Positions 1,559 through 63,737 of a stretch of 64,000 bases of DNA are shown piece after piece. The stretch covers positions 116,888 through 180,887 of the forward strand of contig CALNYG010000004.1 in assembly GCA_942490825.1 (NCBI GenBank). Direction: 5' to 3'. A program made the position numbers and the translations under genes. The notes beneath the pieces are model-generated. The model did no database searches and had not been told where the DNA came from. It saw nothing but the letters and a program-made list of their open reading frames with translations. The stretch is from Candidatus Moraniibacteriota bacterium. GTDB taxonomy: Bacteria > Patescibacteriota > Minisyncoccia > Moranbacterales > GCA-2747515. Within the stretch, counting starts at the first letter, position 1; each line of letters starts with the position of its first letter.

Positions 1559-3868
1559 CTATCCTGAACATCCTTCACAAACATTACCAGTTTTCTCAAC
1601 TTCACCTGACAAACTCCTCACATAATAAATTGTCTTAATTCCCTTTCGCCAAGCATTAAAATAATAATTATATAGCTGTAACGGACTCGTTTTTACCGGA
1701 TCAATCATCCATTCAAAACTCACCGATTGATCAATCCACTTATAAATCACGCTCATCATATCGATCACATCGTCCATATCCATGTCCATATATTCTTTGT
1801 AAAAAAAGTAATTTTCCCGATTCAATTTCGGTGCCACACGAACTGTTGGCGCAGAAAGATTAGTCTCTACAAAATATCTCTTATAAATCGGTAACATAGC
1901 TGCAGTTGTCCCAACTACCCCCGCTGTTGAAGTGTTCGGAGCTGGAGCTGTATGATAAGAAAAACGCACACCATATTTTTTCATATCAGTAAAAAGCTGT
2001 TTCCACTTCTCACCATGATCAGTGTTTTCTTCATACCATTTATGATCTCGGTTTAAAATCAAACCTTTATCATAATCACTACCCTTGTAAACTTTGTAAG
2101 TCCCTCGCTCTTTTGCTAAGTCAACCGACACTCGATAAGTGTGATAGGAATATCGTTCAAATAAATTATTCACATATTCTCTCGCTTCTTTACTGTCATA
2201 TTTAATTTTATTCACTGCCAAATGCTCTGCCAAACCAAGATAACCGATTCCCATACTGCGATAACGCTCTGCTGTATATTCTGCTTCTTTAACAGGATAA
2301 GATGTTAAAGTAATCACATTATCAACAATACGCTCCACAACAGGAATAACTTCAGCTATAGTTTTATCATCGTGAACTTTTGCCACATTTATTGATGCTA
2401 AATTACACACAACAAAATCACCTGGTTTATATCGCAAAACAATTTTTCCATCCTCAATTTTTTCTTCAATAAATTTTGATGGATTTGAATTTTGGCAAAT
2501 TTCTGTGCAAGCCTGAGTTGAATAAATATTTCCCGCATGTCGATTAGCGTTTTCTCTATTGACCGTATCGCGAAAAAATACATAAGGCATTCCCGTTTCA
2601 ACCGCCACCTTCATAAACTTTTTAAATAAATCCTTCGCTTTCACAGTTCGCTTAACTTTCAGCCGATCATCTTTTTCTAGAACTTTATAAAGCTTAACAA
2701 AATCCTTATCAAAATTATCTTGTAATTTTTTACCATGAACTAATTCAATTTCATGTGGATCAAAAATTGTCCATTCCGCATCCTGCTCTACCCTTTCCAT
2801 AAACAAATCTGGAATAGAAATTGCTGGAAAAATATCATAAGCTTTAGATCGAATATCTCCAGACTCTGTTTGCAAATCAAGAAAATCGTAAATATCATAA
2901 TGCCAAACATCCAAGGTTGTTGAAATAACGCCTAAACGAGTTCCTTGCTGATTTACTGCTGTTGCGGTATCATTAATGACTTTTATCCAAGGAATCACAC
3001 CACCAGAAACACCTTTTTCACCACGAATTTCCGCCTCTCGAGAGCGAATATTTCCAAGGTAAACTCCCATTCCCCCGCCAAACTTTGAGATCTGTGCCAT
3101 ATTTTCAATACCATGATAAATCGCTCGCAAATCATCATCAATATTTAATTTGAAACAACTTGATAATTGATGATATGTTGTTCGTGCGTTTAACAGAGTT
3201 GGCGTCGGCAAAGAAATTTTTTGTTGTGAACAATTATCATAAATCTGCAAAGCAAATTTTAAACGATTTTCTTTCTTTTCTGGAATTGCTAAAAATAATG
3301 CAACTGACATGTACATTTGTTGTGGTAATTCTTTTACAACTTTATTCGGATTTAAAAGATAACGTTTTGCTAAAGATAAAACGGTTGTATATTCATAATC
3401 CTGATCACGTTTCGTATCAATGTGTCGACCAGCTTCTAAAATATCTTCCTTTGAATAATATTTGTAAAAGTCTTGATAATACAAATTGTTTTCCATGTAT
3501 TCCTCAAAGAGCGACAAATAAGATTCTGGAGTGTAAAGTTTTTCAACTGACAATCCTCGATTTCGTGAGGCTTGTTTGTAAAGATTACTCACGAAAATTC
3601 GTGCTGCGACGTGTTGCCAGGCAATATTAGTTACTGTAACTAAATCGATACAAGCTTTGACCATTAACTGATTGATGTTTGATGTTTTAATTTCATCAAC
3701 AACATTTTTTTCAAAAGCTTGGAGGAATGCATCAAATTTACATTCTTTTTTATAACCTTTAACACCCCGCTCAAAAACTTTTCTGATTTTTTCCACGTCA
3801 AAAGTTTTTTGAGAATTATCAAATTTAATAACTTTAATATTTTTTTCTTTAATTTTATTTTTAGACAT
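1559..3868 (-). CDS. nrdA: ribonucleotide reductase class Ia large (alpha/R1) subunit
   Basis: 769-aa ORF. It has an N-terminal ATP-cone-like segment (VIKFDNSQKTFDVEKIRKV), a conserved R1 core (LSSCFKL, PWIKVIND, TAPAPNTSTA) and a C-terminal redox tail CEGCSG. Confidence 0.93.
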   Translation of the reverse strand: MSKNKIKEKNIKVIKFDNSQKTFDVEKIRKVFERGVKGYKKECKFDAFLQAFEKNVVDEIKTSNINQLMVKACIDLVTVTNIAWQHVAARIFVSNLYKQASRNRGLSVEKLYTPESYLSLFEEYMENNLYYQDFYKYYSKEDILEAGRHIDTKRDQDYEYTTVLSLAKRYLLNPNKVVKELPQQMYMSVALFLAIPEKKENRLKFALQIYDNCSQQKISLPTPTLLNARTTYHQLSSCFKLNIDDDLRAIYHGIENMAQISKFGGGMGVYLGNIRSREAEIRGEKGVSGGVIPWIKVINDTATAVNQQGTRLGVISTTLDVWHYDIYDFLDLQTESGDIRSKAYDIFPAISIPDLFMERVEQDAEWTIFDPHEIELVHGKKLQDNFDKDFVKLYKVLEKDDRLKVKRTVKAKDLFKKFMKVAVETGMPYVFFRDTVNRENANRHAGNIYSTQACTEICQNSNPSKFIEEKIEDGKIVLRYKPGDFVVCNLASINVAKVHDDKTIAEVIPVVERIVDNVITLTSYPVKEAEYTAERYRSMGIGYLGLAEHLAVNKIKYDSKEAREYVNNLFERYSYHTYRVSVDLAKERGTYKVYKGSDYDKGLILNRDHKWYEENTDHGEKWKQLFTDMKKYGVRFSYHTAPAPNTSTAGVVGTTAAMLPIYKRYFVETNLSAPTVRVAPKLNRENYFFYKEYMDMDMDDVIDMMSVIYKWIDQSVSFEWMIDPVKTSPLQLYNYYFNAWRKGIKTIYYVRSLSGEVEKTGNVCEGCSG

Positions 3869-5147: not shown

Positions 5148-7190
5148 TTACAAATCTATAATCGTCTTTTTCTTTTCTCGACGTTTAAATTTAAATCCTC
5201 CTAACCTCTTCTGATTAAACCAAGCTGCCCCAGAAGCAATTATGGTTGCCATTCCCGTAATTGCAATTCCAGGACCCGTTGTTGGTGAAGTACTTACAAC
5301 AGGAATATTTGTTGGACAACGATAACCAAAATCTGCTTTTTTATAATGTTGATCATCATCTAAATCTTTTTTTGTTGAATGATCTAATTTACCATCACGA
5401 TCATATGTCTGATAACATCCATCTGGTAAAGTTTCTGCGGCTACTACAATTTTATATCCTCCCTCACACAAATCATCAAACTTGTAATCCCCATTGCTAT
5501 TTGTCCATGTTTTTTCAACATCATCACCATTATATAATTTTAACTTAACATTACTGATTCCCTCTTCTCCAGAATCTTGAACACCATCTCCATCCTTATC
5601 ATTCCACACGAAATCACCAATAGACGCTTCACATTTTTCTTTTTTCTTCTTTTTCTTTTTATCCTCTTCCTCCACCTCTTTTTTTTCTTCTTTCTTTACC
5701 TCTTTTTTTCCTTTGACTGAAACATTAGAAGTATCTGAATCAATATCTGAACCATTATCACTCTCACCTGTTGCAGTTGCAGTGTTAATATAAGAATTAG
5801 TTACATTCTTATCCGTACAAGTATAGCTAAAAGATTCATTTGGATCTAAATAAATATGATTTGAACCATATTTATCTTTAATCAAATCAGAAACCTTACT
5901 TTTACTAACAGAACAAGCTGAAACCTGATTATCACTTACAGAAACCGTATTTAATCGAGATTCTCCATTATTATTAACTGTAATTTTAAAGTGAGCATCA
6001 CTACCTTCGTCAATACTTTGACTATCTCCACCTTCCTTAGCTTCTTTATTTATATCAACACTAACACTTTTCTCTGGTTCATCTCCTACCACAACATCAC
6101 TATCATCATCGTCAGTAACACTCGTAGCATCATTATCCTCACCATTAACTACCGCAATATTCGTGAATGAATCTGTTACGTTTTCTATTGTACAAGTATA
6201 AGTGCTTTCTTCTCCAACCGTTAAGTCTCCGATTGTTTTATCACAACTTGGTGATAAAACATCAGTTACTTTTACATTTGAAAGGTCTGTGTTTCCATTA
6301 TTAGTTACTGTAATTGAGAAAGTTGCTGTTTCGCCTTCTTCTACTGTTTGAGTATCATCATTGTTGTCATTATCGTCTTTAATGATTTTAATTGAAGGAT
6401 CATTGATCTGTTGTATTTCTTTAGTTGCAGTACAAGTTGGTGTACTTCCTCCATCAGCTCCGCTACAATTCCATGTCCATGGACTCGCTTGTTCTCCTGT
6501 TCCTGATATAACTGATTCTGTTCCCACTGTACATAAACTTCCAGTTGCTGGAATTTCTGTTAATATTTGTCCATTGTATTGACTATTACATTGTCCATTT
6601 ACTGGAGTCGGTGAAGTTGGTGGAGTTACAGGTGGAGTTACAGGTGGTGGTGTTATGTCTTTTAAAAGCATACAAACTGGTATATGACTGTTTGGATTTG
6701 AATTTGGATAAGGTTTAACATGTCGCAATGAAATCATATCCACAGCTTTTCCCACATCGATATTTCCAACACCACCTGTCCAATAAGCTTGTTCTTTTCC
6801 GTCTGGTATATCTTTTGATGGATTAGTTACTGCTACAGTTTTATTATTAGCTGCTAAAAGTACCCAAAATTGTTCATTTGATTGATTAGCTGAACTTCTC
6901 CCTGAATACCCGTCAAATGATTGAAGAGTTACTGAATATTTTCCTTTTGGAATATTTACATTTTGATACAATACATCAGACCAAGTGCTAGTTTGTTCTG
7001 TTGATATTAAACCATATCCTTTTGCAGCATTATCAAACACGACTAAAACATCGCTTGCTTTTTCCTTTGATAATGTACAAGAAACTGGATAGTGTTCTAC
7101 AGCTTCTGCATTATATGTAGTTGCTAAAAATATTATCGCAACACTGAATACTGATAGTATTGTTGTGGCTAGGATTTTTTTCATACTCAT
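5148..7190 (-). CDS. secreted cell-surface protein with two DUF11-type repeats, an SdrD B-like domain and a C-terminal sorting-signal-like anchor
   Basis: N-terminal signal peptide and a PPVTPPVTPP linker. There is a Cys-rich module (GQCNS...LCTVG...WTWNCSG...CTA) and two repeats of the type TVTNNGNTDLSNVKVTD...C. A K/E-rich linker is followed by GDFVWNDKDGDGVQDSGEEGISNVKLKL. The C-terminus is SPTTG plus a hydrophobic helix plus a KRREKKK tail. Confidence 0.7.
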   Translation of the reverse strand: MSMKKILATTILSVFSVAIIFLATTYNAEAVEHYPVSCTLSKEKASDVLVVFDNAAKGYGLISTEQTSTWSDVLYQNVNIPKGKYSVTLQSFDGYSGRSSANQSNEQFWVLLAANNKTVAVTNPSKDIPDGKEQAYWTGGVGNIDVGKAVDMISLRHVKPYPNSNPNSHIPVCMLLKDITPPPVTPPVTPPTSPTPVNGQCNSQYNGQILTEIPATGSLCTVGTESVISGTGEQASPWTWNCSGADGGSTPTCTATKEIQQINDPSIKIIKDDNDNNDDTQTVEEGETATFSITVTNNGNTDLSNVKVTDVLSPSCDKTIGDLTVGEESTYTCTIENVTDSFTNIAVVNGEDNDATSVTDDDDSDVVVGDEPEKSVSVDINKEAKEGGDSQSIDEGSDAHFKITVNNNGESRLNTVSVSDNQVSACSVSKSKVSDLIKDKYGSNHIYLDPNESFSYTCTDKNVTNSYINTATATGESDNGSDIDSDTSNVSVKGKKEVKKEEKKEVEEEDKKKKKKKEKCEASIGDFVWNDKDGDGVQDSGEEGISNVKLKLYNGDDVEKTWTNSNGDYKFDDLCEGGYKIVVAAETLPDGCYQTYDRDGKLDHSTKKDLDDDQHYKKADFGYRCPTNIPVVSTSPTTGPGIAITGMATIIASGAAWFNQKRLGGFKFKRREKKKTIIDL

Positions 7191-13439: not shown

Positions 13440-14093
13440 TCAAATACAAGGCATTTTTTCAATAAAATCTTTATAATCTTTTAGATCATAATCAAACTGC
13501 TCTAAAATAACATCTTTATCACACAACATTCCATTTCTTTTTCCAAGATAATCTAAAAGACTAGAATATTTCCAATTTTTATTTTTGCCTCCATGAATGA
13601 AATGATTTTGATTTACATAAGCAGATAGATACAAAAGATATTCATTTGAATCAATGTGAATTGACTTGAATTTTCCTTGAAAAAGTGAGCCTGAACGTTT
13701 GTGTTTTTTGTTAAAATACATCGTGTAAGAAGTTCCTAATTTCTGCATAAATCTTTCTACACCCTTATCTGCGTTTTGTTTCAAAATAAAATGATAATGA
13801 TTTGGATTTAAACAATATGCAACAAATTCAACAAGTTTATTCCTACTCTTAAGTTGTTCTTTGAAATTATTTTCAAACACTCCAAGGTTCGACCTTCGGG
13901 GATCCGAAGGTCGAACCTTTTCACGTTGATAATCTCTATAAAGTTGCATCAATCCATTGTTTTCATCATTCAACAAATTCATATTCAAGATAAATCTTTT
14001 GTAATCATCTTCATCCATAAAAACGTCCCTTTTATCAACACCTCGATTATATATATGATAGAATTCTCCATTTACAAATTCTGTTTTTCTCAT
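13440..14093 (-). CDS. REP-associated tyrosine transposase-like protein (RAYT / IS200-like Y1 HUH family)
   Basis: FYHIYNRG, the HUH motif in AYCLNPNHYHFIL, YTMYFNKKHKRSGSLFQGKFKS, catalytic-Tyr region YLLYLSAYVNQN, and WKYSS. I prefer the ATG at 14093; the ORF-track start at 14117 is a TTG. The stop codon is TGA. Confidence 0.85.
   Translation of the reverse strand: MRKTEFVNGEFYHIYNRGVDKRDVFMDEDDYKRFILNMNLLNDENNGLMQLYRDYQREKVRPSDPRRSNLGVFENNFKEQLKSRNKLVEFVAYCLNPNHYHFILKQNADKGVERFMQKLGTSYTMYFNKKHKRSGSLFQGKFKSIHIDSNEYLLYLSAYVNQNHFIHGGKNKNWKYSSLLDYLGKRNGMLCDKDVILEQFDYDLKDYKDFIEKMPCI
13884..13919. repeat. perfect 36-nt palindrome (16-bp arms, 4-nt loop) inside the RAYT-like ORF
   Basis: AAGGTTCGACCTTCGG-GGAT-CCGAAGGTCGAACCTT. 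It is a GC-rich island in an AT-rich gene and is translated in frame as KVRPSDPRRSNL. Confidence 0.95.
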
Positions 14094-32991: not shown

Positions 32992-33076
32992 AAAAATAGA
33001 TATTTAGATTATTAGACTTTTAGTGTTTTAATTTTTTTACTAACAAACCCATAAAAATTCGCATACGCTCCCAAAC

Positions 33077-33164
33077 ATGTCATTCCGGAAAATATATTTT
33101 CTTTTGTAGAAACGTCGATTTATCGCGTTTTATAGATAGAAAATAATTTATCCGGAATCTACAC
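33077..33164. repeat. ATGTCATT hairpin module (single)
   Basis: ATGTCATTCCGGAAAATATATTTTCT-[loop]-AGAAAATAATTTATCCGGAATCTACAC. Confidence 0.85.
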
Positions 33165-33205
33165 TTAAAATTTTCTCAAACTAAAAAAATATAGTTTCAA
33201 TAAAT

Positions 33206-35179: not shown

Positions 35180-35234
35180 ATTTTTTTTATTAATTATTAT
35201 TTAAATTATTTTAATTTACACAAGCTACCAAGAC

Positions 35235-35405
35235 ATGTCATTCCGGAAAATATATTTTCTTTTCGAACGAAGTGAGAAATTAGAAAATAATTTATCCGGA
35301 ATCTATACCTAAAATTTTTTATATCTTAAAGTGTAGATTCCGGATAAACTAATTTGTATTCAATCGCTATCGCTCTTGAACAAATTATGTCTTCCGGAAT
35401 GACAT
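35235..35405. repeat. 171-bp double-hairpin element with ATGTCATT / AATGACAT termini
   Basis: Left hairpin at 35235-35307 (ATTCCGGAAAATATATTTTCT...AGAAAATAATTTATCCGGAAT). Right hairpin at 35331-35405 (ATTCCGGATAAACTAATTTGT...ACAAATTATGTCTTCCGGAAT). The outer termini are inverted repeats. Confidence 0.9.
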
Positions 35406-36863: not shown

Positions 36864-36939
36864 AAAAAACTTTAACAAAATTATTTTTCCTATCTCTAAA
36901 ATACTAAAAATATATACCCCTCTAAATTTCACAGGCCAT

Positions 36940-37279
36940 CAAAAGATAATCTATAAGCTGGATTCTGTCGAGAATAGTGATTTACCTTGTTTATATGTTG
37001 CCATATAAATCCTCGCGACTCACCCCACACCCACAATTTAAATATAAATTATGGGTGTGGGGTACGGTCTTGCACTTAAGTAAGGATTTAGCCGTTTCAC
37101 CTTCCATGTTTCCACAGAAGCTTATCCCGAAGGATAGATCAGAGCTTTCGCGCCAATCCGTCTCTGCTCGCACCTCATGGGTCACCCCAGACGGGAGTTA
37201 CCCGCTACCTCGCTGTCTTCGTAAAAAAAAGACAAGTGTCCAGACTTTCCTCTCCGTAGAGCCACTATTTAATCATCTT
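36940..37279 (-). ncRNA. rnpB: RNase P RNA, bacterial type A
   Basis: The minus strand carries GGAGAGGAAAGTCTGGACAC (CR-I), GGAAGGTGAAACGGC and GACAGAATCCAGCTTAT (CR-V). P1 pairs AGAUGAUU with GAUUAUCU. The region is a local GC-rich island, and the ends are approximate. Confidence 0.85.
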
Positions 37280-37536
37280 TTAATGGACAATATTATTTAG
37301 AGTATTATTTTTAACTGTGGTTATTATACAATAAATTTAACGAAAAATAAAGGAAAAGTTGATTGACTTTTTAATCTCTCTATTGAGTTGAATACAATAT
37401 TTTAAAAGTTCAGATTTAATTTTAAAATTGAAAAAAAATATAAATCATTTAATTTATAAAAAATTTTCTATAAAATTTCTAGTCTACCAACTCTTTATTC
37501 TTATTAATGTTGCTGAAAAGCTGGTATTTAAAAAGT

Positions 37537-38816: not shown

Positions 38817-40592
38817 ATGTTTGAAAAAATTAAAAATGAGCCGACTATTTTTCTTTTCAGAAAGATGTGGAAATTTTCTGAAGGCAATCGCAAGAAGGTT
38901 GTTTTGTTTATGGTTTTATTTTTATTTTCAAATTTAGTAGGATTAATAGAACCAATAATTTTAGCAAAATTATTAAATGAAATTCAAAATAATGGAATCG
39001 ATGCAGAAAATATAAAATTTTTAATTTTACTTTCAACATCCTTTATTTGGTTAAGTCTAGCTTTTTGGATTTTTCAAAGCAATGGTCGTATTTTAGAAAG
39101 AACCAATTCATTTATTGTAAGAAAAAAATATAAAGAATATTTATTAAAAAAAGTTTTAGATTTTAATTTAAATTGGCATAGTAACATGGATAGTGGAGAT
39201 ACTATTGATAAAATAAATAAATCTACAACTGGACTTTTTAATTTTTCAGGTACCACTTTTCGTGTTTTGTATATAATCGTTCAAATAATTGGAGTCACTA
39301 TTGCTTTAACATATTTTGATTTAAGAATTGGAATATTCAGTTTATTTAGCACAATTTTTGCATTTTTTATATTATATCAATTTGATAAGCGACTTGTGCC
39401 TCAATATAAAAAACTAAATAAATATGAAAATAAAATTGAAGCAAAAATATTTGATTCAATTTCCAATATAACCAGTGTAATAATTTTGAATATAAAAAAA
39501 AGTGTTTTGAATAATATTTCTAAAAAAATAAATAACCCTTTTATTTTATATAAAAAAAATGTGGTATTAAATGAAAGGAAGTGGTTTACAGCAGACATTT
39601 TATTCAATTTATTGATAGTAATCTTACCATTAACTTTTTACATTTTTAATATTTACAAATATTCTTTAGCAGTTGAAATTGGAACAATTGCTGCTTTAAA
39701 TGCGTATTTAAATAAAATGAGAAATGTATTTTTTAATTTTAGTGGAACTTATGAAGAATTAATCCAAAGAAAAGCCTCTATCCAAAATGCAGACTCAATC
39801 GAAGAAAATTTTAAAAAAAATGAGCAAATTATCAAAAAACCAATTGAAAATTGGAATGAAATTCAAATTACCAATCTAAATTTTTCTTATCAAGAAACTC
39901 AAGGAGAAATCCATTTAAATAATGTAAACATAAATATAAGTTCAGGAGAAAGAATCGCCTTAATCGGAGAATCAGGCTCAGGAAAAACAACATTCCTCAA
40001 AGTGCTCCATGGACTTTACGATAACGCTCAAGCAAAAATATCAGTCGACAACAATCAAAAATCAGAAACAAATTTTGATGATTTAGATCTAAAAACAATG
40101 TTAGTTCCCCAAGAACCAGAACTATTCTCTTCAAGCGTCCGTGAGAATATAACATTCGGATTAGAATACACTCAAGAAGAAATTGAAAAAATGACTAAAT
40201 TAGCCGAATTCAGCGACGTCATAGAAAAACTACCCCAAAAATATGATTCTGTAATAAATGAAAAAGGTGTCAATCTATCAGGCGGACAAAAACAAAGACT
40301 CGCCTTAGCTCGTGCTTTAATATTTGCTCAAGAAAAAAATATAATTCTCTTGGATGAATCCACATCATCAGTCGATCCAGAAACAGAAGTAAAAATTTAC
40401 AAAAATATTTTTAGACATTTTAAAAATAAAACTGTCATTGCTTCTATTCACAAAATTAATTTATTAAAATATTTTGATCGAATCATAATGTTTCAAGATG
40501 GTAAAATTGTTGACTCTGGGACTTTCAACGAATTATTAGAGACAAATGAAAAGTTTAAATCTGACTGGGAAGAATATATCAAGAAAGCATAA
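38817..40592 (+). CDS. ABC transporter, fused permease/ATPase (type I exporter)
   Basis: 6-TM N-terminal half, GESGSGKTT, LSGGQKQRLALARAL and ILLDESTSS. Confidence 0.88.
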   Translation: MFEKIKNEPTIFLFRKMWKFSEGNRKKVVLFMVLFLFSNLVGLIEPIILAKLLNEIQNNGIDAENIKFLILLSTSFIWLSLAFWIFQSNGRILERTNSFIVRKKYKEYLLKKVLDFNLNWHSNMDSGDTIDKINKSTTGLFNFSGTTFRVLYIIVQIIGVTIALTYFDLRIGIFSLFSTIFAFFILYQFDKRLVPQYKKLNKYENKIEAKIFDSISNITSVIILNIKKSVLNNISKKINNPFILYKKNVVLNERKWFTADILFNLLIVILPLTFYIFNIYKYSLAVEIGTIAALNAYLNKMRNVFFNFSGTYEELIQRKASIQNADSIEENFKKNEQIIKKPIENWNEIQITNLNFSYQETQGEIHLNNVNINISSGERIALIGESGSGKTTFLKVLHGLYDNAQAKISVDNNQKSETNFDDLDLKTMLVPQEPELFSSSVRENITFGLEYTQEEIEKMTKLAEFSDVIEKLPQKYDSVINEKGVNLSGGQKQRLALARALIFAQEKNIILLDESTSSVDPETEVKIYKNIFRHFKNKTVIASIHKINLLKYFDRIIMFQDGKIVDSGTFNELLETNEKFKSDWEEYIKKA

Positions 40593-40617: not shown

Positions 40618-40780
40618 AAAGTGCTCGCCGCACGGGCTTTTCTGAACAAGGGGTCATGACCCCTTGTTCAGATTCTAAAAATTTTCTGTCATTCTGAACG
40701 GATTTATTTTTTTCAGAAAAAATATAGTAGTGAAGTCTGCCTATCGGCAGATAGGAATCCCCCACAGAGAATCACAAAAC
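40618..40780 (+). repeat. composite repeat with GC-box copy 5, a 32-nt perfect palindrome, a GTCATTCTGAACG hairpin module and a nested 20-nt mini-palindrome
   Basis: GC-box at 40618-40641. The palindrome TCTGAACAAGGGGTCA|TGACCCCTTGTTCAGA is at 40641-40672. CTGTCATTCTGAACG...GTGAAG[TCTGCCTATCGGCAGATAGG]AATCCCCC has the bracketed insert at 40736-40755. The whole block is colinear with 51077-51201. Confidence 0.9.
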
Positions 40781-40812
40781 AATATTTTTAAAAAACTGAA
40801 AATACTAAAATC

Positions 40813-51076: not shown

Positions 51077-51201
51077 AAAGTGCTCGCCGCACGGGCTTTT
51101 TAGATTTTATTTTTTCTAAAAGTTTTCTGTCATTCTGAACGCATTTATTTTTTATTTAAAAAATAAAGGAGTGAAGAATCCCCCAAAGAAAATCATAAAA
51201 C
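51077..51201 (+). repeat. composite repeat with GC-box copy 6 and a GTCATTCTGAACG hairpin module
   Basis: AAAGTGCTCGCCGCACGGGCTTTTT ... CTGTCATTCTGAACG ... GAGTGAAGAATCCCCCAAAGAAAATCATAAAAC. It is colinear with 40618-40780 but lacks both palindromic inserts. It sits between CIRCE and the dnaJ start. Confidence 0.9.
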
Positions 51202-51253
51202 CGTTAATTTTAACTCTTAAAGTTTAATACCAATTTATCATAAAATAAAAAAA

Positions 51254-54148: not shown

Positions 54149-54651
54149 ATAAAAAGATTAGAAAATAATGATGATGCAAATATAGACAATAAAACCAGTA
54201 TAATTCCTGAAATAACTGAGCCAATTGCTAAAAGTGGAATCGCCTTTTTGAAAGGAATATCGAAAATACTAGCCGCCACTGCTCCAGTTACAATCCCTGT
54301 AAATGGCAACGGAATTGCCACAAAAGCTATCAAAGCGAAAGCTCCCCACTTTTCAAATTTATCAATATTTTTTGTTTGAATTCGGTGAATATATTTTTTC
54401 CAAATTTTATTTAACCATTCAATTTTCTTTAGGAAAAAATCGAATATATTATCTACAAAAACAAACGTTAAAATCCCCACTAAAACATTACCTAAAATTG
54501 AGTAGATAAAGGCTGCAAATGGATTCATTTCATATCCTATGATTGCTACAGGAATTGAAGCTCTTATTTCTGTAATTGGTATCATTGCGAGTAGGAATGT
54601 TGCCCACTCATGCGACAAATTTGAAACTGATTCTATAATTATTTCTTTCAT
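54145..54651 (-). CDS. small multidrug-export-like membrane protein (COG2426/Sm_multidrug_ex family)
   Basis: LAMIPITEIRASIPVAI pattern with 4-5 helices. It overlaps tpiA by 4 nt. Confidence 0.45.
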   Translation of the reverse strand: MKEIIIESVSNLSHEWATFLLAMIPITEIRASIPVAIIGYEMNPFAAFIYSILGNVLVGILTFVFVDNIFDFFLKKIEWLNKIWKKYIHRIQTKNIDKFEKWGAFALIAFVAIPLPFTGIVTGAVAASIFDIPFKKAIPLLAIGSVISGIILVLLSIFASSLFSNLFI

Positions 54652-54667
54652 TTATTTATTTAAAAAA

Positions 54668-55102
54668 TTAAAATCCAAAATCACTATAAAAGCTATCTTT
54701 ACGTATATTTTCAAGAGCCTGTTTAATAAAAGGAATTGTATTTTCTGGCAAGTCATCCAAATCAAACCAACTAACATCATCACACTTATTAGACTCTGCA
54801 ACTTTCGGTTCGCCTTTCCATTTTTTTGCCATAAAAAATACATCGATTCTATTACCATTTTGTTGTCTATGTAAAACATGTACTGCATCAAGACTATCTG
54901 AACATAAATCAATATCAACCTCTTCTTTAGCTTCCCTAATCATTGCATCTTTGTACGCCTCACCATCATCAACATGACCGCCGACCAAACTATAATTTCC
55001 ATCTTCATAACCAGTATTGTATCTTCGCAATAAAAGAATTTTATTATCTTTAACTAAGACAAGATAAATTCCTGGAGTTATTTTTAATCTCTCTTTAGAC
55101 AT
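54668..55102 (-). CDS. Nudix hydrolase (paralog A1)
   Basis: Canonical Nudix box GGHVDDGEAYKDAMIREAKEEVDI. About 85% aa identity to the ORF at 61372-61806. Confidence 0.88.
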   Translation of the reverse strand: MSKERLKITPGIYLVLVKDNKILLLRRYNTGYEDGNYSLVGGHVDDGEAYKDAMIREAKEEVDIDLCSDSLDAVHVLHRQQNGNRIDVFFMAKKWKGEPKVAESNKCDDVSWFDLDDLPENTIPFIKQALENIRKDSFYSDFGF

Positions 55103-57374: not shown

Positions 57375-57593
57375 ATATCATTCCGGAAAATATATTTTCT
57401 CCTTCAGAGCGTAGCGATGAAATAGAAAATAATTTATCCGGAATCTAGAAAACTTTAAGATTATAAATAAACTTTAATTTTTTATTTTTCTCTTGTAATT
57501 TCTAAATACCGGATAGACGAACCTGTCTGCCGAACAGGCAGGTTTAAATCAATCGCTACGCTCTTGAATAAATTCTGTCTTCCGGCATGACAT
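57375..57593. repeat. 219-bp double-hairpin element with ATATCATT / CATGACAT termini and a nested mini-palindrome
   Basis: Same architecture as 35235-35405. The right hairpin additionally contains ACCTGTCTGCCGAACAGGCAGGT (57521-57543), which is absent from the 35331-35405 copy. Confidence 0.9.
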
Positions 57594-60885: not shown

Positions 60886-61335
60886 TTAATTCCAACCAAA
60901 TTCACTGTAAAAATTATCATTCTTAATATTTTCAAGAACCTGAAGAACCTCTGGAGCAATATTTTCTGGTAAACTATTCAAGTCAAACCATGATAAATCA
61001 TCACATTTCTCTGGTTCCATGTTTTTAATCTCACCATCCCATTTTTCACTCACAAAAAATGCACTGACTCTTTCATTATTCTGAGTGATCCCAAAATCTC
61101 CATGTATCACATGAGCTACTTTTAAATTTTTTGATTCTAAATCAACTCCTATCTCTTCCTTTGCTTCCCTAATTACACATCGAGTAAAACTTTCTCCGAC
61201 TTTAACGTGTCCAGAAGGTAATGAATATTTGCCATTACAATACTTTTTATTATAACGTCTCGACATTAATACTTTCTTATCTTTTAATAAAATCAGATAT
61301 GACGCTGGAATTATTTTATGTCTTTCTTTTTTCAT
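60886..61335 (-). CDS. Nudix hydrolase (paralog B)
   Basis: Nudix box SGHVKVGESFTRCVIREAKEEIGV. About 50% identity to paralogs A1 and A2. Confidence 0.85.
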   Translation of the reverse strand: MKKERHKIIPASYLILLKDKKVLMSRRYNKKYCNGKYSLPSGHVKVGESFTRCVIREAKEEIGVDLESKNLKVAHVIHGDFGITQNNERVSAFFVSEKWDGEIKNMEPEKCDDLSWFDLNSLPENIAPEVLQVLENIKNDNFYSEFGWN

Positions 61336-61371
61336 ATTTTTTAAATTTAATTATTTTTATAAGTTCAAAAC

Positions 61372-61806
61372 TTAAAATCCAAAATCACTATAAAAAACTT
61401 CTTTCTTTATATTTTTAAGAGCTTGTTTTATAAAAGGAATTGTATTATCAGGTAAATTATCCATATCAAACCAACTAACATCATCACATTTTTCAGATTC
61501 TGCAACTCTAGGCTCACCAGTCCAATCATTTGCCATAAAAAATACATCGATTCTATTACCACTTTGTTGCCTATGCAATACATGCACAGCATTTAAATCT
61601 GCTGAATTTATTTCTATATCAGCTTCCTCTTTAGCTTCTCTAATCATCGCATCCTTATAAGCTTCACCATCATCAACATGTCCACCTACTAAACTATAAT
61701 TACCATCTTCGTATCCAGTATTATATCTTCTAAGTAAGAGAATTTTATTATCTTTTATTAAAACAAGATAAATTCCCGGAATAATTTTTAATCTTTCTTT
61801 AGACAT
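61372..61806 (-). CDS. Nudix hydrolase (paralog A2)
   Basis: GGHVDDGEAYKDAMIREAKEEADI. About 85% aa identity to 54668-55102. Confidence 0.88.
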   Translation of the reverse strand: MSKERLKIIPGIYLVLIKDNKILLLRRYNTGYEDGNYSLVGGHVDDGEAYKDAMIREAKEEADIEINSADLNAVHVLHRQQSGNRIDVFFMANDWTGEPRVAESEKCDDVSWFDMDNLPDNTIPFIKQALKNIKKEVFYSDFGF

Positions 61807-63696: not shown

Positions 63697-63737
63697 GTGC
63701 CTGTCTGCCGATAGGCAGGCTCGCCGCACGAGTTTTT
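63697..63737 (+). repeat. GC-box repeat copy 7, interrupted by a 20-nt mini-palindrome
   Basis: GTGC[CTGTCTGCCGATAGGCAGGC]TCGCCGCACGAGTTTTT, with the bracketed insert at 63701-63720. Confidence 0.9.

What the first reader, a model, noticed from the sequence alone, without database searches (positions are those of the whole stretch)
63697..63737. Repeat nested within a repeat: a 20-nt mini-palindrome interrupts a GC-box and recurs inside two other repeat families
GC-box copy 7 reads GTGC[CTGTCTGCCGATAGGCAGGC]TCGCCGCACGAG. Removing the bracketed 20 nt (63701-63720) restores the GC-box.

Nearly the same unit, 18 of 20 identical in reverse complement, appears at 40736-40755 as TCTGCCTATCGGCAGATAGG. 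There it splits GTGAAG|AATCCCCC, which is contiguous in the sister copy at 51171-51184.

A third copy, ACCTGTCTGCCGAACAGGCAGGT at 57521-57543, sits inside the right hairpin of the 57375-57593 element and is missing from the homologous hairpin at 35331-35405.

These are three independent presence/absence contrasts within one window. They indicate that this roughly 20-nt hairpin (stem CTGCC/GGCAG or CCTGTCTG/CAGGCAGG) is itself inserted or excised as a discrete unit, with a preference for landing in other repeats.
Basis: seen in the sequence. Interest (0 to 1): 0.7.

Follow-up and report, generated by a model that had tools for sequence, protein, structure and literature searches.

The report
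Tiny 20-base hairpin that inserts itself
A 20-21-base GC-rich hairpin has been inserted as a clean, discrete unit at three places in this candidate-phyla-radiation bacterium. The same 20 bases occur in more than a dozen bacterial phyla and in viral contigs, which makes it a candidate for one of the smallest and most widespread mobile DNA elements.

Summary
The window (a Moranbacteria-like Patescibacteria chromosome, 30% GC) holds three copies of CCTGTCTGCC-GA(N1-2)A-GGCAGG, at 63700-63719 (+), 40736-40755 (-) and 57522-57542 (+). Each copy interrupts another repeat family.

Related genomes carry the same host repeat at the same intergenic position for all three sites. Those host repeats are uninterrupted. 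The difference is 20 nt at each site, exact at two sites and net at the third, and there is no target-site duplication.

About 98 kb of relatives' DNA holds no copy, so the insertions are specific to this lineage.

The dominant form, CCTGTCTGCCGACAGGCAGG, was found in 120 genome stretches before the scan was cut off. These include 70 Bacteroidota and 11 Patescibacteria, plus Planctomycetota, Nitrospirota, Proteobacteria, Bacillota, Actinomycetota and a cyanobacterium. It also occurs in 23 viral-contig stretches.

In those genomes it nests inside its own loop. It also sits in the loops of other hairpin repeats and in D- and T-loops of displaced tRNA gene fragments.

The agent that moves it is unknown. 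A RAYT-like Y1 gene lies in the window, but a test for the classical REP-RAYT association failed. The closest known analogues are the cyanobacterial small dispersed repeats (SDRs) and REPs. I rate it a new variant of a known kind.

The parts
63700..63719 (+). Copy A of the 20-nt hairpin unit, CCTGTCTGCCGATAGGCAGG, inserted in a GC-box
   Evidence: The orthologous site in L129 has the GC-box intact (CCCGTGCGGCGA|GCAC), and the window has exactly 20 nt more.
63697..63732 (+). GC-box copy 7, the host of copy A. It is split into GTG (63697-63699) and CTCGCCGCACGAG (63720-63732).
40736..40755 (-). Copy B, CCTATCTGCCGATAGGCAGA on the minus strand
   Evidence: The orthologous element in L121 and the paralogue at 51171-51184 are uninterrupted.
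40673..40790 (+). Host repeat of copy B (TTTTCTGTCATTCTGAACG...AGTGAAG|AATCCCCC). The sister copy is at about 51114-51205.
   Evidence: (family D14).
57522..57542 (+). Copy C, the 21-nt variant CCTGTCTGCCGAACAGGCAGG
   Evidence: The orthologous element in L126 and the paralogue at 35331-35405 lack it.
57375..57593 (.). Host of copy C: a MITE-like inverted-repeat element (CATTCCGGAA...GAGCGTAGCGAT... / ...ATCGCTACGCTC...TTCCGGCATGACAT). Paralogues lie at 33076-33199, 35234-35405 and 63850 to beyond 64000.
   Evidence: (families D3, D5). It is present at the orthologous position in L126, so it is older than the hairpin insertion.
13440..14093 (-). RAYT-like Y1/HUH (IS200-like) gene. It is a candidate trans-acting enzyme, but no link to the hairpin was shown.
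   Evidence: Pfam PF01797 scores 35.4 bits, above its cut-off of 23. NCBIfam REP_Tyr_transpos scores 28 bits, below its cut-off of 80. The HUH motif (HYH) and the Tyr motif (YVNQNH) are present. The gene is not flanked by the hairpin.

Best explanation
The unit is a very small, non-autonomous mobile element. It is a 20-21-nt GC-rich hairpin: stem CCTGTCTG/CAGGCAGG with one T.G pair, and a loop CCGA of variable length.

Shown: it is copied into new sites as a discrete block without target-site duplication. It lands preferentially where DNA or RNA can itself fold, namely in loops and stem-loop junctions of other hairpin repeats, in tRNA-gene D- and T-loops, and in its own loop. In this genome three insertions occurred after the split from the nearest sampled relatives. 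Each is in a different pre-existing repeat.

Inferred: because 20 nt cannot encode anything, a trans-acting enzyme must move the unit. The mechanism I think most likely is insertion of the folded single strand into transiently single-stranded, structured targets by an HUH/Y1-type (IS200/RAYT-like) strand-transferase. I give that specific enzyme assignment only about 0.25.

Inferred: the near-identical sequence across phyla and on viral contigs suggests horizontal spread together with a conserved recognising enzyme.
For: Discrete insertion:
- Exact 20-nt differences between the window and orthologous sites occur at A and B. At C the net difference is 20 nt.
- Relatives' DNA (98 kb, L121-L130) has no copy of the hairpin but keeps the GC-box.
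- Outside this genome, a series of 0, 1 and 2 insertions occurs in three tandem tRNA-Leu 5' fragments in Galbibacter.
- Five filled tRNA-Arg fragments lie next to one intact, empty tRNA in a Flavobacterium MAG. There the boundaries GGATA|unit|GAATA are unambiguous and there is no duplication.

Not chance:
- In the genome scan all 129 matches have G at the degenerate R position, and 86 are exactly CCTGTCTGCCGACAGGCAGG.
- The exact 20-mer gives 26 unique sites in viral contigs. A relaxed 17-base version adds only 6 sites, about the chance level.

Structured targets:
- Perfect bracketing stems of at least 6 bp occur at 11.9% of insertion points, against 2.8% of nearby controls (p = 1e-4).
- Self-nesting after position 9 of the outer copy occurs in L001, L008 and L052.
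- 14 of 159 hits lie within 300 nt of an intact tRNA gene.
- All 3 window insertions lie in repeats (p about 0.002).
- 67 of 88 copies of the 20-nt form lie outside long ORFs.

Single-strand character:
- The top strand folds into 8 bp with a T.G pair (-11.2 kcal/mol as RNA). The complementary strand folds less well (-9.0).
- 6 of 7 independent insertions into tRNA fragments have the same orientation relative to the tRNA sense strand.

Y1 enzymes:
- A Y1 gene is present in the window.
- Y1 genes occur in 5 of the 120 loci (6 ORFs).
Against: The enzyme assignment is weak:
- The window's RAYT-like gene has no hairpin in its short flanks.
- 586 kb around 64 homologues holds only one unique family member, 2 kb from the gene.
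- A homologue at 65% identity sits in a similar context (a large aminoacyl-tRNA-synthetase gene next to the Y1 gene) in another Patescibacteria genome. This looks like a vertically inherited housekeeping-like gene, not a recently arrived partner of the hairpin.
- No Y1 gene is present in the multi-copy viral contigs.

Other points against:
- REP sequences normally co-evolve with their RAYT and are lineage-specific. This 20-mer is the same in at least 12 phyla.
- No conserved target tetranucleotide was found. There is only a weak preference for C after the insertion (68/122) and for A at position -3.
- The three window copies differ from each other, so a single local master copy is not evident.
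- By the strict test, only 12-16% of insertion points are in clear hairpin loops.
Confidence: 0.6

Rival explanations
1. The mobile unit is the same, but it moves through an RNA intermediate or some other machinery that is not HUH-based. This is what was proposed for the cyanobacterial small dispersed repeats. The hairpin RNA would enter loops of structured transcripts (tRNA precursors, transcribed repeats) and be fixed in DNA by reverse transcription and recombination.
For: Targets are enriched for tRNA-like loops and the 5' flanks of tRNA genes. The T.G pair in the stem is a normal U.G pair in RNA. The top strand folds better than the bottom strand. Orientation is mostly the same as the tRNA sense strand. 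The test for a Y1 association failed. From my own knowledge, the SDR paper favoured RNA intermediates.
Against: No reverse transcriptase or ligase was found recurrently near copies. No Rfam family covers the unit. Nothing shows that the host repeats are transcribed. No known bacterial pathway inserts 20 nt into RNA loops and copies the result back into DNA.
Confidence: 0.2
2. The hairpin is installed or retained in connection with a nuclease, for example the small GIY-YIG proteins that sit beside displaced tRNA fragments. It would act as a repair patch or as a disruption of the nuclease's target site that confers immunity.
For: GIY-YIG ORFs lie directly beside hairpin-bearing tRNA fragments in L017, L056, L072, L076, L114 and L137. 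The intact tRNA copy is always uninterrupted.
Against: No GIY-YIG gene is present in the 64-kb window. About 95% of the loci have no GIY-YIG gene nearby. The pattern is equally explained by tolerance of insertions in dead tRNA fragments only.
Confidence: 0.08
3. The unit is not mobile. The copies arose independently by local slippage or hairpin-templated synthesis of (CCTG)n/(CAGG)n palindromes. Or they are selected functional hairpins, such as terminators or protein-binding sites, spread by gene conversion.
For: The unit is built from CCTG/CAGG tetranucleotide repeats, and perfect-palindrome variants exist. Copy A precedes a T-run.
Against: Independent origin cannot give the same asymmetric 20-mer (T at position 5, A at position 12) in many phyla. 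Boundaries are exact and the flanks are unrelated. The T-run at A belongs to the GC-box, and copies B and C have none. No homologous flanks exist that could support gene conversion.
Confidence: 0.04
4. The copies are an assembly or sequencing artefact, such as adapter-like hairpins.
For: The same short sequence appears in many unrelated assemblies, which is what a contaminant would produce.
Against: The unit is present in isolate genomes and finished chromosomes made by different projects. It occurs in tandem repeat units and nested forms. It is strongly non-random with respect to ORFs, loops and tRNAs. The three copies in the window are all different variants.
Confidence: 0.01

Closest known systems
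Small dispersed repeats (SDR1-8) of Nostocaceae (Elhai et al. 2008, Genome Res 18:1484). I cite this from my own knowledge and from the citing papers PMC3116915 and PMC5861425; the paper itself is not held.
   Same: They are 21-27 nt units, and some share a hairpin fold. They are found inside copies of themselves, inside mini-transposons and inside another short repeat (HIP1). They were inferred to be mobile from all-or-none presence, and the mobilising agent is unknown.
   Different: SDRs were reported as essentially confined to one cyanobacterial subgroup. This unit occurs in at least 12 phyla and in viral contigs, and only one hit was in a nostocalean genome (L040). Copy numbers here look low. 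I could not test sequence identity to any SDR family.
REP / REPIN elements with their RAYT transposases (PMC3116915, PMC3733652)
   Same: They are 20-40-nt GC-rich imperfect palindromes that are mostly extragenic. Some REP families sit inside palindromic targets (PMC3733652). A RAYT-like Y1 gene is present in the window.
   Different: The unit has no GTAG or CGTC tag at an end. The RAYT-like gene is not flanked by the unit. The unit does not form inverted doublets. The same sequence occurs across phyla instead of being lineage-specific, and copy number is low.
IS200/IS605 single-strand transposition and its miniature derivatives
   Same: There is no target-site duplication, the substrate is a hairpin, and structured single-stranded DNA is the likely target.
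   Different: Those elements have separate left and right end hairpins and insert 3' of a fixed tetra- or pentanucleotide. This unit has a single 20-nt hairpin, and no conserved target motif was found.
Rickettsia palindromic elements (RPEs) and classical MITEs
   Same: They are palindromic insertions that can land in genes, including in frame. In L095 two 21-nt units sit in frame in an ATPase-like ORF.
   Different: RPEs and MITEs are 70-300 nt. MITEs have terminal inverted repeats and target-site duplications. Neither feature applies here.

Membership tests
REP/REPIN-RAYT system | A short (20-40 nt) GC-rich imperfect palindrome, repeated and mostly extragenic | tested here: met
   The unit is a 20-21-nt hairpin with three copies in the window, all intergenic. 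Elsewhere, 67 of 88 copies lie outside long ORFs.
REP/REPIN-RAYT system | A conserved GTAG (or CGTC) tetranucleotide at one end of the palindrome (PMC3733652) | tested here: not met
   The ends are CCTG...CAGG on both strands. GTAG occurs only inside a few variants, such as CCTGCCTGCGGTAGGCAGG.
REP/REPIN-RAYT system | The RAYT gene is flanked by its cognate REPs (a REPtron) | tested here: not met
   The flanks of 13440-14093 hold no copy. The nearest copy is about 27 kb away. In 586 kb around 64 homologues there is one unique family member, 2 kb from the gene.
REP/REPIN-RAYT system | The REP sequence is lineage-specific and co-inherited with a single-copy RAYT | tested here: not met
   The same 20-mer occurs in at least 12 phyla and in viral contigs. 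Close relatives of the window organism have no copy in 98 kb.
REP/REPIN-RAYT system | RAYT binds and cleaves the single-stranded REP | not testable with these tools
   This needs purified protein and oligonucleotides.
Small dispersed repeats (SDR, Elhai 2008) | The unit is 21-27 nt with a hairpin fold | tested here: met
   The unit is 20-21 nt with an 8-bp stem and a 4-5-nt loop. It folds at -11.2 kcal/mol as RNA and -5.5 as DNA.
Small dispersed repeats (SDR, Elhai 2008) | Found nested in copies of itself and inside other repeats or mini-transposons, with all-or-none presence | tested here: met
   Self-nesting occurs in L001, L008, L052 and L223. The unit lies inside a MITE-like element, a GC-box and a further repeat in the window.
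Small dispersed repeats (SDR, Elhai 2008) | Confined to Nostocaceae, with sequence belonging to SDR1-8 | tested here: inconclusive
   The distribution is far wider. The SDR consensus sequences could not be read because the paper is not held.
IS200/IS605-type single-strand transposition | Insertion without target-site duplication | tested here: met
   Exact 20-nt differences with no duplicated flank are seen.
IS200/IS605-type single-strand transposition | Insertion 3' of a fixed tetra- or pentanucleotide, in one orientation | tested here: not met
   The left flank has no conserved word. There is only A at position -3 in 52% of cases and C at +1 in 56%. Orientation relative to host hairpins is 8:3, which is not significant.
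MITE | Terminal inverted repeats, a target-site duplication, and a length of 70-300 nt | tested here: not met
   The unit is 20 nt and has no duplication.
Intrinsic terminator | A GC-rich hairpin directly followed by a T-run, downstream of a gene on the same strand | tested here: not met
   Copies B and C have no T-run. The T-run after copy A belongs to the GC-box.

The most novel reading that the evidence does not exclude
The 20-mer is a pan-bacterial, horizontally spreading hairpin. It is moved by a conserved enzyme, not yet identified, that integrates a folded 20-nt strand specifically into the loops of other hairpins. Its targets include tRNA-gene loops and its own loop. If so, it would be the smallest mobile element known with a cross-phylum range, and it would mark a new kind of structure-targeted strand-transfer activity.
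Probability: 0.3. Interest if true: 0.9.

Novelty: new variant of a known kind. Interest (0 to 1): 0.7.

Why it matters
Mobile DNA this small has been argued for only in one cyanobacterial group, and its mechanism has stayed unknown for over fifteen years. Here the same 20 bases show clean filled and empty sites in a CPR bacterium. They recur in Bacteroidota, many other phyla and viral contigs, with a measurable preference for hairpin loops and tRNA-like structures.

That gives a well-defined substrate (one 20-mer), a defined type of target (hairpin loops) and many genomes for phylogenetic profiling. The long-standing question of what moves very small repeats therefore becomes directly testable. 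An enzyme that places a short hairpin into structured DNA would also be of practical interest.

On the practical side, such insertions split other repeats and tRNA-like sequences and can confuse annotation of small RNAs, terminators and pseudogenes.

Tried and rejected
1. Exact-protein look-ups to find other samples of the same strain failed. RuvX, KhpA, the 103-aa protein and P0001 were not on record, so I could not test within-population polymorphism.

2. Literature searches for the sequence found nothing relevant. Descriptive searches gave only REP, SDR and HIP1 papers. Three look-ups by id failed: two for the SDR paper and one for a 2026 preprint.

3. Rfam finds no family over the hairpins. 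It finds only RNase P in the window and tRNAs near copies elsewhere.

4. All-against-all clustering of ORFs around 120 copies found no protein family consistently nearby. The largest cluster spans 17 loci, which I take (by guess, not checked) to be ordinary transporters or regulators. Y1 genes occur in 5 loci (6 ORFs) and GIY-YIG genes in 5.

5. A lax loop test on minimum-free-energy folds (stem of at least 4 bp) showed no enrichment: 18% against 16%. Only the strict perfect-stem test did.

6. The overall folding energy of joined flanks is only slightly lower than at random positions (p = 0.019).

7. The idea that the unit is a transposon reduced to its two termini failed. A search for half-sites separated by long inserts found only more nested palindromes, not long elements. 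The lack of target duplication also argues against a DDE transposon.

8. The covariation scan with two free positions in viral contigs was uninformative, because the extra hits are at chance level. Copy B's changes (G4A with C13T, and G20A opposite T5) are compensatory in two shifted registers, but this rests on a single sequence.

9. No GIY-YIG homologue is present in the window.

Full report
**What is in the window**

The window is 30% GC, and most genes lie on the minus strand. Its proteins place it in the Patescibacteria, near Candidatus Moranbacteria. The ABC transporter at 38817-40592 is identical to a protein on a 182,390-nt NCBI contig and 76% identical to a Moranbacteria protein.

The sequences quoted in the finding are all present. 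Three copies of a GC-rich unit exist:
- A: CCTGTCTGCCGATAGGCAGG, 63700-63719 (+).
- B: CCTATCTGCCGATAGGCAGA, 40736-40755 (-).
- C: CCTGTCTGCCGAACAGGCAGG, 57522-57542 (+).

Shuffled sequence gives essentially none of these.

Each copy interrupts a different repeat family:
- A splits one of seven GC-boxes.
- B splits a roughly 110-nt element that has a sister copy at about 51114-51205.
- C lies in one arm of a roughly 220-nt inverted-repeat, MITE-like element that has paralogues at 33076, 35234 and 63850.

These three repeat families cover 12.5% of the 8.46 kb of intergenic DNA. Three out of three insertions landing in them has a probability of about 0.002 if insertions were spread evenly over intergenic DNA.

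**Orthologous empty sites**

I fetched syntenic DNA from related genomes, using homologues of the ABC transporter and of exonuclease III at 74-82% protein identity.

- Site B: L121 carries the same element between the ABC transporter and KhpA genes. It reads AAGCGAA|GAATCCCCC without interruption, and the window has exactly 20 nt more.
- Site A: L129 carries an intact GC-box (CCCGTGCGGCGA|GCACAAAAATTA) at the same position upstream of the 103-aa gene, within flanks that are about 90% identical. The window again has exactly 20 nt more.
- Site C: L126 carries the same inverted-repeat element between RuvX and the glycosyltransferase gene without the 21-mer. The net length difference is 20 nt, and the neighbouring AT-rich bases have diverged somewhat.

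No flank is duplicated at any of the three sites.

The relatives' DNA (98 kb, L121-L130) contains no member of the hairpin family, yet it carries GC-boxes at a density similar to the window. The host repeats are therefore older than the split between these genomes. The hairpin insertions are younger and specific to the window's lineage. Three precise excisions in the relatives are formally possible, but the within-window paralogues are also empty, so insertion is the more parsimonious reading.

**The same unit elsewhere**

All 129 matches have G at the degenerate position, and 86 are exactly CCTGTCTGCCGACAGGCAGG. The window's variants GATAGG (6 copies) and GAACAGG (13 copies) also recur.

By record title, the 120 stretches comprise:

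| Group | Stretches |
|---|---|
| Bacteroidota | 70 |
| Other FCB-group | 6 |
| Patescibacteria | 11 |
| Planctomycetota | 4 |
| Nitrospirota | 4 |
| Deltaproteobacteria-like | 5 |
| Other Proteobacteria | 5 |
| Bacillota | 4 |
| Actinomycetota | 3 |
| Other PVC | 2 |
| Omnitrophota | 1 |
| Cyanobacterium | 1 |
| Unclassified | 4 |

Several are isolates or finished chromosomes.

The exact 20-mer also occurs in 23 stretches of viral contigs, some with 3-6 family members. Relaxing two internal positions (and the terminal base, which the tool ignores as an end N) added only six sites, which is about the chance level. By my own scaling from that result, the 26 unique exact sites are at least 100-fold above expectation.

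A few of the 21-nt hits inside ORFs of GC-rich genomes (for example L100 and L108) are probably ordinary coding sequence. Consistent with this, 8 of 12 GAACA-type hits lie in long ORFs, whereas 67 of 88 copies of the 20-nt form lie outside them.

**Anatomy of the unit**

The dominant form folds as an 8-bp stem, CCTGTCTG/CAGGCAGG, with one T.G pair and the loop CCGA. It folds at -11.2 kcal/mol as RNA and -5.5 as DNA. The complementary strand has C.A in place of T.G and folds less well.

Because the arms are built from CCTG/CAGG tetranucleotides, two shifted 6-bp registers are also possible. Copy B's three differences from the dominant form are compensatory in those shifted registers. This is a single case and may be chance.

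Family variants keep the arms and vary the centre by 0-8 nt. One example is the perfect palindrome CCTGCCTGCCGGCAGGCAGG.

**Where it lands**

The clearest cases are displaced tRNA-gene fragments.

- In a Flavobacterium MAG (L114), five tandem 5' fragments of tRNA-Arg each read GGATA[unit]GAATA in the D-loop. The intact tRNA downstream reads GGATAGAATA.
- In Galbibacter (L056), three successive tRNA-Leu 5' fragments carry two, one and no insertions.
- Other fragments have the unit at a different D-loop position (L116) or in the T-loop (L017).

Functional tRNAs are never interrupted. This fits strong targeting of such loops combined with survival of insertions only in dead copies.

The unit also sits after position 9 of another copy of itself in L001, L008 and L052. 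It appears as direct tandem pairs in L055 and L095. It also occupies the apical loops of other hairpin repeats that end in ...ATGAC, which resemble the window's GTCATTC... repeats (L024, L063 twice, L067, L109, L119).

Quantitatively:
- A perfect stem of at least 6 bp brackets 12 of 101 insertion points, against 28 of 1010 nearby control positions (p = 1e-4). A laxer test showed nothing.
- 14 of 159 hits lie within 300 nt of an intact tRNA gene, and 10 of these are on its 5' side. By my own estimate, 1% or less would be expected from usual tRNA density.
- No conserved target word exists. C follows the unit in 56% of cases and A is at position -3 in 52%.

**What moves it**

Twenty nucleotides cannot encode a protein, so a trans-acting activity is needed.

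*In favour of an HUH/Y1 single-strand transposase.* There is no target duplication, the hairpin is asymmetric, and the targets are structured.

The window encodes a RAYT-like Y1 protein at 13440-14093. It scores above the Pfam PF01797 cut-off, has the HUH and Tyr motifs, and scores below the NCBIfam RAYT cut-off. Some sources annotate its homologues as RayT.

*Against the classical REP-RAYT arrangement.*
- The gene's flanks have no copy of the unit.
- 586 kb around 64 homologues contains a single unique family member, 2 kb from the gene.
- A homologue at 65% identity sits in a similar context elsewhere: a large aminoacyl-tRNA-synthetase gene lies next to the Y1 gene. I infer, but did not test, that the 958-aa ORF next to the window's Y1 gene corresponds to it.
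- The multi-copy viral contigs hold no Y1 gene.
- The unit lacks the GTAG or CGTC tag of the known REP superfamilies (PMC3733652).

Y1 genes lie within 8 kb of 5 of the 120 copies (6 ORFs), but none is adjacent.

Small GIY-YIG genes sit beside the tRNA-fragment cases, but none is present in the window.

I therefore rate 'mobile mini-hairpin inserted as a unit into structured single strands' as well supported. I rate the identity of the enzyme as open: about 0.25 for Y1/HUH, about 0.2 for an RNA-mediated route like that proposed for SDRs, and less for a nuclease-linked route.

**Comparison with known systems**

The closest analogue is the set of small dispersed repeats of Nostocaceae. From my own knowledge of Elhai et al. 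2008, these are 21-27 nt, some share a hairpin fold, they nest in themselves and in mini-transposons, and they were inferred to be mobile with no known mechanism. The paper is not held in the library; it is cited in PMC3116915 and PMC5861425.

The present unit behaves in the same way but differs in sequence family (untested against the SDR consensus sequences). Above all, it differs in range, with at least 12 phyla and viral contigs against one cyanobacterial subgroup.

REPs resemble it in size and composition, and some REP families are known to sit inside palindromic targets (PMC3733652). However, four of the five defining REP-RAYT features I could test are not met. It is not a MITE, an RPE or an intrinsic terminator.

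I found no prior description of this sequence. The library is incomplete, so prior description cannot be excluded.

**Verdict**

The element is a new, unusually widespread variant of the 'very small mobile repeat' kind, and its mobilising mechanism is unresolved. Interest is 0.7.

Noticed in passing
window 40642-40671: A 30-nt perfect palindrome, CTGAACAAGGGGTCA|TGACCCCTTGTTCAG, lies between the GC-box and the host element of copy B. It is absent from the orthologous spacer in L121 and from the sister copy near 51100. It is single-copy in the window. It looks like a second, unrelated hairpin insertion in the same intergenic region.
   Followed up: partly
window 13884-13919 (inside the RAYT-like ORF); L218 about 7000-7130: A 36-nt perfect palindrome (16-bp arms, 4-nt centre) lies in frame inside the RAYT-like gene and encodes ...KVRPSDPRRSNL.... 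The 65%-identical homologue in L218 has a 38-nt perfect palindrome at the same place with compensatory base changes (TTCGACC/GGTCGAA becomes TTCAACC/GGTTGAA). More distant homologues lack it. This suggests a hairpin maintained within the gene.
   Followed up: partly
window 17130, 25067, 28868, 33209, 40621, 51080, 63697-63732; L121-L129: The GC-box (GTGCTCGCCGCACGGGC followed by TTTT) is conserved at orthologous intergenic positions in several related genomes. It folds only weakly (-3.4 kcal/mol, z = -0.2). Its T-run is on the plus strand although most genes are on the minus strand. Its function is unknown, and it is not a convincing terminator.
   Followed up: partly
L056 6380-7220; L114 3770-4640; also L017, L072, L076, L116, L137: In Bacteroidota and related groups, small GIY-YIG ORFs sit in tandem arrays with duplicated 5' fragments of a tRNA gene, upstream of the intact tRNA. 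This looks like a tRNA-targeting selfish cassette. The 20-mer interrupts the duplicated fragments but not the working tRNA.
   Followed up: partly
L095 about 3075-3117: Two tandem 21-nt units (each encoding LSAEQAG) lie in frame within what reads like a P-type ATPase ORF (...HGLKANVN[LSAEQAG x2]GKELLVGN...). This would be an in-frame insertion in a protein-coding gene.
   Followed up: no
window 54668-55102, 60886-61335, 61372-61806: There are three NUDIX hydrolase paralogues, two of them adjacent. They account for the 300-nt direct repeat at 54641-54940 and 61345-61644 (80% identity).
   Followed up: partly
window 57375-57593 compared with L126 6820-7158: The MITE-like inverted-repeat element is at the same position in a relative with 82% protein identity, so it predates the split. 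Besides the 21-mer, the window copy has an extra AT-rich stretch of about 22 nt in its centre.
   Followed up: no
L024, L060, L063, L067, L109, L119 (flanks of the 20-mer); window 40690, 51131, 35390, 57585: A very widespread class of hairpin repeats with GTCAT...ATGAC-type ends occurs in CPR, Bacteroidota, Proteobacteria and others. It resembles the window's GTCATTCTGAACG and TTCCGGAATGACAT repeats. These hairpins repeatedly host the 20-mer in their apical loop.
   Followed up: no
window 36938-37280 (-): A bacterial RNase P RNA, class A (Rfam RF00010, 114 bits), overlaps a spurious plus-strand ORF at 36977-37300.
   Followed up: yes
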